This document shows positions 10,824 to 11,281 of a stretch of DNA of 64,000 nucleotides, piece by piece. Position numbers and translations under genes: made by a program. The DNA comes from Escherichia coli (GTDB taxonomy: Bacteria > Pseudomonadota > Gammaproteobacteria > Enterobacterales > Enterobacteriaceae), in assembly GCF_036507355.1 (NCBI RefSeq), contig NZ_AP027877.1. One strand, written 5' to 3'. The notes below the pieces were generated by a model that did not search any database, had not been told where the DNA came from, and was given only the letters and a program-made list of their open reading frames with translations. Within the stretch, counting starts at the first letter, position 1. Each line of letters starts with the position of its first letter.

Positions 10824-10840
10824 TTCCTGTTTTATTCAAT

Positions 10841-10861
10841 GAGGGTTGCCCGGCAACCCTC
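10841..10861 (+). terminator. Stem-loop terminator after yeeX
   Basis: Inverted repeat gagggttg / caaccctc followed by T-rich tract. Confidence 0.6.
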
Positions 10862-10923
10862 ATTGCTCATTGATTCTTTTCTGTGTATCACAGTCATCAT
10901 TCCCATCTGATAACCTATCGAAA

Positions 10924-11100
10924 TTAGCGACAGACATCTTCTGTATGCAGCAAGGCAAAAAATTCTGTAACTCCATTGTTATTAACCGCATTGGTTACTA
11001 ACACGTTGTGCGCTCCGGCTTCCCGTAACCAACATTTCACCAAAGATATTTGTTCCATGCTGGCTAAATCTGCTTTGGTGACTACTCCAATGATCGGACG
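10924..11100 (-). pseudogene. Possible C-terminal remnant of a small P-loop GTPase (EutP/PduV-like)
   Basis: 58-codon fragment RPIIGVVTKADLASMEQISLVKCWLREAGAHNVLVTNAVNNNGVTEFFALLH with TKxD G4 motif, immediately preceded by an in-frame stop. Confidence 0.3.
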
Positions 11101-11281
11101 TTAACACGAGGAAGTCTGGCTATTCCACAATGCCATCTTCTTTCGTAATGGATTGAGAATGCTGGATTTTTAATTATATTACGCGCAGTATTAATCGCGT
11201 AAATGTTTTGTGGTCAGCAACGGTGGGGGATCCATTGTTCTGTTCAATGAATACCATCATACAATTGAATCAGGAGTCGGT

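What the first reader, a model, noticed from the sequence alone, without database searches (positions are those of the whole stretch)
10824..11281. No CP4-44 prophage between yeeX and cobU; small GTPase-like pseudogene remnant instead
In K-12 the CP4-44 prophage (IS5, yeeP, flu/Ag43, cbtA/cbeA) lies between cobU and yeeX (established knowledge). Here the interval is only 458 bp. On the minus strand is a 58-codon fragment ending in a stop and preceded by a stop, with a TKxD G4 motif, resembling the C-terminus of a small EutP/PduV-type P-loop GTPase. It may be a relic of an older gene or the edge of an excised element.
Basis: partly seen in the sequence, partly recalled or inferred. Interest (0 to 1): 0.3.

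Follow-up and report, generated by a model that had tools for sequence, protein, structure and literature searches.

The report
Leftover end of deleted pduV gene
The 458-bp gap between yeeX and cobU is the scar of a 17.7-kb deletion that removed the propanediol-utilisation (pdu) gene cluster, leaving only the dead tail of its last gene, pduV; this is an ordinary, already annotated E. coli strain polymorphism.

Summary
yeeX (tmaR) ends at 10823 and cobU starts at 11282, so the interval is 458 bp with no CP4-44 sequence. A minus-strand 58-codon fragment (10927-11100) with TKAD lies between two stops.

It matches Pfam PduV-EutP (E=1.2e-10). It is the 3' end of pduV, not of eutP and not the edge of an island. 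In about 12% of complete E. coli genomes (644 of 5,426, e.g. E24377A) this site holds an intact locus: yeeX | pduV...pduA | pduF-pocR | cobalamin riboswitch | 145-aa CbiG-N-like ORF | cobUST.

All 458 bp of the window map colinearly to the two ends of that 18.1-kb locus. They meet at an imperfect 6-bp repeat, CGG(G/A)CG (11095-11100), and about 17.66 kb is missing.

The relic does not stand "instead of" CP4-44. K-12 carries the same fragment (yoeF, PGAP "EutP/PduV family") beside yeeX, with CP4-44 inserted next to it. The relic is present in 5,423 of 5,426 genomes. It lacks the P-loop, so I infer it is non-functional. The deletion also removed the B12 riboswitch upstream of cobUST.

Low interest; already known in substance.

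The parts
10494..10823 (+). yeeX (tmaR, DUF496) CDS; left boundary of the interval
   Evidence: ORF list. PGAP annotation of the 100%-identical stretch in strain G4/9.
10837..10865 (.). Perfect 13-bp-stem hairpin between the convergent genes yeeX and pduV. Likely a shared transcription stop. Conserved in every structural state compared.
   Evidence: RNA fold gives -21.8 kcal/mol, z = -4.25. It appears as a self-inverted match in blastn. The simple terminator scan did not call it, because there is no T run.
10924..11100 (-). 3' relic of pduV: the last 58 codons plus the native stop codon. It keeps G4 (TKAD) and lacks the P-loop, the DTPG motif and the N-terminal 89 residues.
   Evidence: The left 271 nt, which contain it, are 269/271 identical to the same stretch at intact pduV in pdu+ strain OkiPb01712; within the 58 codons the difference is 3 nt (2 aa). 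Orthologous to the intact 147-aa PduV in E24377A, E. coli E69 and E. whittamii. PGAP: 'EutP/PduV family ... missing N-terminus'.
11095..11100 (.). Deletion junction: the imperfect 6-bp repeat CGG(G/A)CG, present once in pduV and once near the 3' end of ORF145 in intact loci. About 17.66 kb is missing here.
   Evidence: blastn against E24377A: window 10780-11100 aligns to ref 343-663 and window 11094-11328 to ref 18321-18555, with a 7-bp overlap. Junction sequences were compared. There are two junction haplotypes, found in 186 and 132 genomes.
11095..11148 (+). 3' relic (17 codons RTLTRGSLAIPQCHLLS plus stop) of a 145-aa ORF that resembles the CbiG N-terminal domain and precedes cobU in pdu+ strains. 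Its first bases supply the 'upstream stop' (11101-11103) of the pduV fragment.
   Evidence: The intact ORF in E24377A ends ...CQTLTRGSLAIPHSHLLS*. It matches NF004463 cobalt-precorrin-5A hydrolase, positions 1-125 of 351, E=1.6e-19. Longer relics occur in IAI1/L010 (118-119 aa ORF) and in K-12 ('cobalamin biosynthesis protein' pseudogene).
11153..11180 (+). Promoter-like site (TTGAGA-16-TATATT) about 100 bp upstream of cobU, in sequence retained by every structural state. Candidate cobUST promoter now that the riboswitch leader is gone.
   Evidence: Consensus scan found 1 site against 1.2 expected by chance, so it is weak on its own. The stretch is nearly invariant across the strains compared.
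11282..11827 (+). cobU CDS; right boundary of the interval, followed by cobS and cobT

Best explanation
The interval is a deletion scar. The ancestral Escherichia arrangement at this site was: yeeX, then pduV...pduA on the opposite strand, then pduF and pocR, then a cobalamin riboswitch, a 145-aa CbiG-N-like ORF and cobUST. It totals 18.1 kb and survives intact in about 12% of E. coli.

In the window's lineage a single deletion of about 17.66 kb joined codon 90 of pduV to the 17th-last codon of the CbiG-N-like ORF. The join lies at an imperfect 6-bp repeat, CGGGCG/CGGACG, which suggests microhomology-mediated illegitimate recombination (inferred).

What remains is the 58-codon tail of pduV on the minus strand and a 17-codon tail of the other ORF on the plus strand. 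The pduV tail has no start context of its own, no P-loop and no N-terminal region, so it cannot bind nucleotide. I take it to be a non-functional pseudogene (inferred).

The only likely functional consequences belong to the deletion: loss of 1,2-propanediol catabolism, and loss of the B12 riboswitch leader. cobUST must then be transcribed from a promoter in the retained ~180 bp (inferred).

CP4-44 simply never left a trace here. In K-12 it sits between the same two relics.
For: Identity of the fragment:
- Pfam PduV-EutP E=1.2e-10, C-terminal third of the profile only; TIGR02528.

Intact loci at the same position:
- E24377A and OkiPb01712 carry pduA-V, pduF, pocR, the riboswitch, ORF145 and cobUST here.
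- The cobalamin riboswitch was confirmed at 107.8 bits.
- E. coli E69 and E. whittamii have an intact 147-aa pduV convergent with yeeX.
- 644 of 5,426 genomes cover at least 80% of a pduT-U-V query.

Colinearity:
- All 458 bp map to the two ends of the E24377A locus with a 7-bp overlap.
- The junction repeat is visible.
- The window's left 271 nt are 269/271 identical to the same stretch at intact pduV in a pdu+ strain.

Other states of the site:
- K-12 has the same relic next to yeeX with CP4-44 beside it.
- A longer scar of 865-868 bp (IAI1 type) occurs in 202 genomes.

Decay and regulation:
- pN/pS within E. coli is about 0.5-1.8, against 0.19-0.31 between intact inter-species pairs.
- 29 of 271 sites vary among 8 strains, while yeeX differs at 1-2 of 330.
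- No Rfam match in window 10400-11500.
Against: - Non-function is inferred, not shown. The 58-codon frame is open in all ten alleles compared. PGAP calls a 44-60 aa CDS in some strains (M19, K-12), and pN/pS rests on 2-15 substitutions per pair.
- Even two intact E. coli alleles give pN/pS 0.62, so relaxed constraint is not specific to the relics.
- Whether the window state arose directly from an intact locus (17.66 kb lost) or from the IAI1-type scar (a further 0.41 kb lost) is not resolved. The retained ends are nested: IAI1 type keeps more than K-12, which keeps more than the window.
- The promoter call is no better than chance expectation.
Confidence: 0.9

Rival explanations
1. The fragment is the edge or footprint of an excised CP4-44-type island: the island once sat here and left by imprecise excision.
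For: The K-12 island abuts the relic only about 6 bp beyond the window's breakpoint: K-12 keeps pduV to ref 669, the window to ref 663. The cobU-yeeX site is a known island site, with CP4-44 in K-12 and B and a ~43-kb PAI-cobU in ExPEC (PMC3032704, PMC7545054).
Against: No island-derived base is present; both halves of the 458 bp are chromosomal pdu-locus sequence. The window's relic haplotype is 269/271 identical to an intact pdu+ strain but only 253/271 to K-12, which points to origin from a pdu+ background rather than an island-bearing one. K-12 keeps 117 bp more of ORF145 than the window does, so a precise excision is excluded.
Confidence: 0.05
2. The window-type scar is secondary. It arose from the older 865-bp scar (IAI1 type) by a further 0.41-kb deletion between the same 6-bp repeats, not by one 17.66-kb event.
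For: The retained ends are nested: IAI1 type keeps ref ..785 and 18035.., the window keeps ..663 and 18321... Both repeat copies are present in the 865-bp scar. Short deletions are more frequent than long ones.
Against: The window's left flank matches an intact pdu+ allele (269/271) better than either IAI1-type allele examined (259 and 265 of 271), including the T at 11094 one base from the junction. The second junction haplotype (M19 type, 132 genomes) sits on a different pduV allele background. That suggests repeated loss from intact loci, or recombination.
Confidence: 0.25
3. The fragment encodes a functional small protein, translated from ATG 11058 (44 aa) or from an island-supplied start as in K-12 yoeF, or it acts as a regulatory element for cobU or yeeX.
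For: The frame is open in all ten alleles compared. The fragment is retained in 5,423 of 5,426 genomes. PGAP calls it as a CDS in some genomes.
Against: It lacks the G1-G3 motifs and the N-terminal region. It has a different N-terminus in each structural state. Nonsynonymous changes are frequent, including S-to-N in the G5 'SA' motif of the window allele. Nucleotide diversity is about ten times that of the adjacent yeeX. Retention is explained by its position between the yeeX hairpin and the cobU promoter region.
Confidence: 0.04
4. The fragment is a relic of an eutP paralogue rather than of pduV.
For: The family models PF10662 and TIGR02528 cover both proteins.
Against: The intact orthologue lies immediately after pduU as the last gene of the pdu operon. 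It scores 46 bits against the EutP equivalog NF012011, whose cut-off is 258. The longer relic in L010 reads [29 protein letters not shown]..., close to a canonical 150-aa enterobacterial PduV, P0069.
Confidence: 0.01

Closest known systems
yoeF of E. coli K-12 (60-aa CDS WP_001016348.1, PGAP 'EutP/PduV family microcompartment system protein')
   Same: Same locus, same strand and same 58 codons (50 of 58 amino acids identical), directly after the yeeX hairpin.
   Different: In K-12 the fragment runs about two codons further (MNHPVIG...) and abuts CP4-44. In the window it abuts the tail of the CbiG-N-like ORF. To my recollection K-12 databases list yoeF as part of CP4-44; I did not verify that here. 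The empty and pdu+ sites show it is chromosomal.
PduV, last gene of the E. coli / Escherichia pdu operon (147 aa; E24377A WP_001189436.1)
   Same: Orthologous. Residues 90-147 correspond to the fragment, which differs at 2 of 58 residues from the OkiPb01712 allele. Same convergent position relative to yeeX.
   Different: The window lacks residues 1-89, which include the P-loop GPSQCGKT and the DTPG motif, and lacks the whole operon upstream.
Salmonella/Klebsiella/Citrobacter-type PduV (150-aa representative P0069) and EutP
   Same: Same family (PF10662). The TKxD G4 motif and the C-terminal helix pattern are shared. The fragment is 48% identical to P0069 over 54 residues.
   Different: From my own knowledge, the Salmonella operon continues with pduW and pduX and has a full cbi cluster before cobU. 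The Escherichia locus ends at pduV and has only riboswitch, CbiG-N-like ORF and cobUST. EutP is a separate orthologous group.
cobU-yeeX island insertion site (CP4-44 in K-12 and B; PAI-cobU in ExPEC; empty in W and Crooks)
   Same: The window is one of the known 'empty' variants of this site (PMC3032704 table; PMC7545054).
   Different: 'Empty' covers at least two different scars (458 bp and 865-868 bp) and is distinct from the pdu+ state.

Membership tests
EutP/PduV family (Pfam PF10662, NCBIfam TIGR02528) | Significant match to the family profile | tested here: met
   PF10662 scores 41.8 bits against a cut-off of 21, E=1.2e-10, profile positions 90-142 of 143. TIGR02528 scores 38 bits, below its full-length cut-off of 138 because only a third of the protein is present.
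EutP/PduV family (Pfam PF10662, NCBIfam TIGR02528) | Complete NTPase domain with the P-loop (GxxxxGKT) and the DTPG motif | tested here: not met
   The fragment starts at the position of residue 90 of the 147-aa protein. GPSQCGKT and DTPGE lie in the deleted part. It is a pseudogene fragment, not a family member in the functional sense.
EutP/PduV family (Pfam PF10662, NCBIfam TIGR02528) | G4 motif (N/T)KxD | tested here: met
   TKAD at fragment residues 8-11, window 11079-11068.
PduV orthologous group (as opposed to EutP) | Encoded at the 3' end of the pdu operon, after pduT and pduU | tested here: met
   The intact orthologue, with about 86-97% identical C-terminal 58 residues, follows pduU in E24377A, OkiPb01712 and E69. 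In E. whittamii the figure is 78%. The intact protein fails the EutP equivalog model, 46 bits against 258.
CP4-44 / CP4-type island | Presence of island sequence (yeeP-type GTPase, agn43, cbtA/cbeA, IS5/IS2) or of an island-chromosome junction | tested here: not met
   All 458 bp align to the island-free pdu+ locus. The K-12 island genes have no counterpart in the interval.
Cobalamin riboswitch (RF00174) leader of cobUST | Covariance-model match upstream of cobU | tested here: not met
   No Rfam match with E<=1 in window 10400-11500. The positive control in E24377A scores 107.8 bits.

The most novel reading that the evidence does not exclude
The same 17.7-kb pdu deletion arose independently at least twice, at the identical imperfect 6-bp repeat.

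Two junction haplotypes exist. ...ATGATCGGACG... occurs in 186 genomes and sits on an OkiPb01712-like pduV allele. ...ATGACCGGGCG... occurs in 132 genomes and sits on an E24377A/IAI1-like allele. Together with the IAI1-type and K-12-type losses, this would make the site a recurrent-loss hot spot.

Each loss would also strip the B12 riboswitch from cobUST and so rewire cobalamin-salvage regulation.
Probability: 0.3. Interest if true: 0.25.

Novelty: already known. Interest (0 to 1): 0.1.

Why it matters
It matters little. It tidies up a K-12 annotation detail: yoeF is a chromosomal pduV relic, not prophage cargo. It also shows that the "empty" cobU-yeeX sites of E. coli are scars of loss of the pdu cluster, which is still polymorphic in the species. 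About 12% of complete genomes are pdu+, about 4% carry the long scar, about 6% carry the window-type scar, and the rest hold an island or something else.

The one point with some biological content is that every pdu-minus state, K-12 included, has lost the cobalamin riboswitch and most of the small CbiG-N-like ORF that precede cobUST in pdu+ strains. Regulation of B12 salvage should therefore differ between the two kinds of strain. That difference is inferred and was not tested.

Tried and rejected
- The genome-contig scan with the 58-aa fragment returned only Escherichia loci plus contaminated MAG contigs. It was too specific to reach Salmonella or Klebsiella pduV, but it did yield the intact E69 and E. 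whittamii loci.
- The search for homologous proteins returned only Escherichia fragments of 102 aa or less. It was useful only through P0002, the 91-aa relic that led to the long scar.
- I first read the megablast break at query position 274 as the K-12 island junction. The alignment showed that K-12 pduV sequence continues about 6-12 bp further, and that the break is where the window itself diverges.
- I first suspected the '+ strand' relic upstream of cobU to be cbiP, as in Salmonella. That was rejected: Pfam gives nothing, and the intact 145-aa ORF matches only the CbiG N-terminal domain.
- NZ_CP089930 (E69) is not in the annotated collection.
- Lawrence & Roth 1995 (PubMed id 7592411) is not held, so statements about cob operon history rest on my own knowledge.
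- I assumed the window was strain G4/9. That is wrong outside the region of interest: the window carries a 4.7-kb insertion and an IS1 that G4/9 lacks.
- The simple terminator scan did not call the yeeX hairpin. Folding shows it is strong.

Full report
**1. What is in the sequence**

The window carries sbmC, yeeA and yeeX (tmaR, 10494-10823, +), followed by cobU (11282-11827, +), cobS and cobT. The interval 10824-11281 is exactly 458 bp. On the minus strand, 11100 down to 10927 reads RPIIGVVTKADLASMEQISLVKCWLREAGAHNVLVTNAVNNNGVTEFFALLHTEDVCR. A stop follows at 10926-10924 and an in-frame stop precedes at 11103-11101.

**2. Is the similarity real?**

Yes. Pfam PF10662 (PduV-EutP) matches at E=1.2e-10 over profile positions 90-142 of 143, and NCBIfam TIGR02528 at E=1.6e-9. 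The fragment is therefore the C-terminal third of the protein. PGAP annotates the identical stretch in strain G4/9 as [quoted passage not shown].

**3. Relation to K-12 and CP4-44**

The 458 bp were searched against 5,426 complete E. coli genomes.
- 5,423 genomes contain the sequence.
- In 530 it is contiguous or nearly so.
- In most others it is split near query position 274.

In MG1655 the same fragment is a 60-aa CDS (WP_001016348.1; the gene known as yoeF). It lies 100 bp after yeeX on the opposite strand, followed by CP4-44. The island comprises a transposase fragment, yeeW, cbtA, cbeA, yeeT/S/R, agn43, a GTPase-family pseudogene, IS2 and IS5. Then come a "cobalamin biosynthesis protein" pseudogene and cobU. 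The K-12 interval is 13,267 bp.

So CP4-44 is indeed absent from the window. But the relic is not a substitute for it, because both coexist in K-12. Published comparisons already list cobU-yeeX as a variable island site. It holds CP4-44 in K-12 and B, is empty in W and Crooks (PMC3032704), and holds a ~43-kb PAI-cobU in ExPEC (PMC7545054). yoeF is listed between yeeX and cobU in island-free STEC, with unusually low identity of 94.2% (PMC5359238).

**4. Where the relic comes from**

A protein search returned only Escherichia fragments. One of them is a 91-aa version extending into ...[20 protein letters not shown].... Its contig (L010) shows an 865-bp cobU-yeeX interval with a longer pduV piece facing a 118-aa + strand ORF.

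A genome scan found E. coli E69 and E. whittamii with an intact 147-aa PduV. In both it is convergent with yeeX and preceded by pduU, pduT, pduS and pduQ.

Using that DNA as a query, 644 of 5,426 E. coli genomes cover at least 80% of pduT-U-V. The annotated loci of E24377A and OkiPb01712 read as follows:

yeeX | pduV...pduA | pduF, pocR | cobalamin riboswitch | 145-aa hypothetical protein | cobU, cobS, cobT

This is 18,122 bp between yeeX and cobU. There are no cbi genes and no pduW or pduX. The riboswitch scores 107.8 bits. The 145-aa ORF matches the N-terminal domain of CbiG (NF004463 positions 1-125 of 351, E=1.6e-19) and nothing in Pfam. The intact PduV passes TIGR02528 (186 bits) but not the EutP equivalog (46 bits against 258). 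Synteny and sequence together identify the fragment as pduV, not eutP.

**5. The scar**

blastn against E24377A maps window 10780-11100 to one end of the locus and window 11094-11328 to the other. The two matches overlap by 7 bp, and about 17.66 kb is missing between them. Every base of the interval is accounted for, and nothing is island-derived.

At the junction the intact sequences and the window read as follows:
- pduV side: ...CCAATGA(C/T)CGGGCG|ATTCATT...
- ORF145 side: ...TTTTGTC(A/G)GACG|TTAACACGAGG...
- window: ...CCAATGATCGGACGTTAACACGAGG...

The join therefore lies within the imperfect repeat CGG(G/A)CG (11095-11100). This is consistent with microhomology-mediated deletion, which is an inference.

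On the + strand, 11095-11148 encodes RTLTRGSLAIPQCHLLS*. That is the tail of ORF145, which in E24377A ends ...TLTRGSLAIPHSHLLS*.

**6. Other states of the same site**

| State | What is kept or present | Genomes |
|---|---|---|
| Intact pdu+ | Full 18.1-kb locus | 644 |
| IAI1/L010-type scar, 865-868 bp | About 100 codons of pduV and about 118 codons of ORF145 | 202 |
| Window-type scar, 458 bp | 58 codons of pduV and 17 codons of ORF145 | about 318-328 |
| Island-bearing or other, including K-12 | K-12 keeps pduV to ref 669 and ORF145 from ref 18204, with CP4-44 and IS5 between | about 4,250 (78%) by subtraction |

The window-type count is 530 minus 202 by subtraction. It is supported by junction-specific 40-mers: 186 genomes have the window junction and 132 have a second junction...ATGACCGGGCGTTAAC... 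(M19 type).

The retained ends are nested: the IAI1 type keeps more than K-12, which keeps more than the window.

**7. History (partly unresolved)**

The window's left 271 nt compare as follows:
- 269/271 to intact pduV in OkiPb01712
- 265 and 259 of 271 to the two long-scar alleles
- 259/271 to the M19-type short scar
- 253/271 to K-12

The T at 11094, one base from the junction, is shared with OkiPb01712. The M19-type junction sits on an E24377A/IAI1-like allele.

This favours at least two separate losses from different pdu+ backgrounds at the same repeat. A single event followed by recombination is not excluded, nor is derivation from the long scar by a further 0.41-kb deletion.

**8. Function**

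The fragment lacks residues 1-89 of PduV, which carry the P-loop GPSQCGKT and the DTPGE motif. From my own knowledge (Parsons et al. 2010), the N-terminal segment is also what associates PduV with the microcompartment. Its upstream sequence differs in every structural state.

Within E. coli, 29 of 271 sites vary among eight strains, against 1-2 of 330 in yeeX. pN/pS over the 58 codons is about 0.5-1.8 within E. coli and 0.19-0.31 between intact inter-species pairs. These ratios rest on very few substitutions, and the two intact E. coli alleles give 0.62. The window allele has S-to-N in the G5 'SA' motif, but so does the intact OkiPb01712 allele.

I conclude that it is a dead pseudogene. It is retained because it sits between the yeeX hairpin (10837-10865, -21.8 kcal/mol, z = -4.25) and the region upstream of cobU. 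That conclusion is inferred, not shown.

The deletion removed the cobalamin riboswitch; no Rfam match remains in 10400-11500. cobUST must therefore depend on a promoter in the retained ~180 bp. One promoter-like site lies at 11153-11180, no more than chance would give.

**9. Verdict**

The feature is ordinary and already annotated by PGAP. The pdu polymorphism and the cobU-yeeX island site are both known. I did not find the exact deletion end-points, the two junction haplotypes or the riboswitch loss stated in the papers searched, but they are minor.

Noticed in passing
window 2360-7050: A 4.7-kb insertion between sbcB and dacD that is absent from the otherwise 99.9%-identical strain G4/9. It carries ORFs resembling a GtrA-like flippase (120 aa), a GtrB-like glycosyltransferase (304 aa) and a large membrane glucosyltransferase (488 aa), plus a 278-aa tailspike-like fragment. 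This looks like an O-antigen-modifying prophage remnant. About 30 bp appear duplicated at its ends.
   Followed up: partly
window 18827-19594 (TSD tacaatgtg at 18818-18826 and 19595-19603): A 768-bp IS1-like insertion (ends GGTGATGCTGCCAACTTACTGAT... and ...AAGTTGGAGTCATTACC) with a 9-bp target duplication. It interrupts the gene annotated 'RNA-directed DNA polymerase' in G4/9. That gene is a retron-like reverse transcriptase in a small integrase-bearing islet at a tRNA-Asn gene.
   Followed up: partly
L011 24726-25163 and 25382-25556 (E24377A); tail at window 11095-11148: In pdu+ E. coli, cobUST is preceded by a cobalamin riboswitch and a 145-aa ORF homologous only to the N-terminal domain of CbiG. 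There are no other cbi genes. The ORF may be an independent small gene, or may itself be the relic of an older deletion of the cbi cluster.
   Followed up: partly
window 10824-11100 compared with 10494-10823: The pduV 3' region is unusually polymorphic in E. coli, up to 6.6% divergence, and about 5% even between two intact alleles. The adjacent yeeX is nearly invariant at 0.3-0.6%. This suggests old allelic lineages or imported alleles at the pdu end of the locus.
   Followed up: partly
window about 250-730 (hisL to yeeZ): The yefM-yoeB toxin-antitoxin pair lies between hisL and yeeZ in strain OkiPb01712, and in K-12 to my knowledge. It is not annotated in the nearest relative G4/9 at its own hisL-yeeZ spacer. 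The window itself starts at tsuA/sbcB, so this concerns the relative rather than the window proper.
   Followed up: no
L011 26620-26703: Rfam finds the sRNA STnc230 (74.8 bits) between pocR and pduF in the intact E24377A locus. It is also lost in the window's deletion.
   Followed up: no
L004, L005: Contigs labelled Planctomycetota and Segatella copri MAGs carry the E. coli pduV relic at 86-89% amino-acid identity. This is almost certainly E. coli contamination or mis-binning in those MAGs.
   Followed up: no
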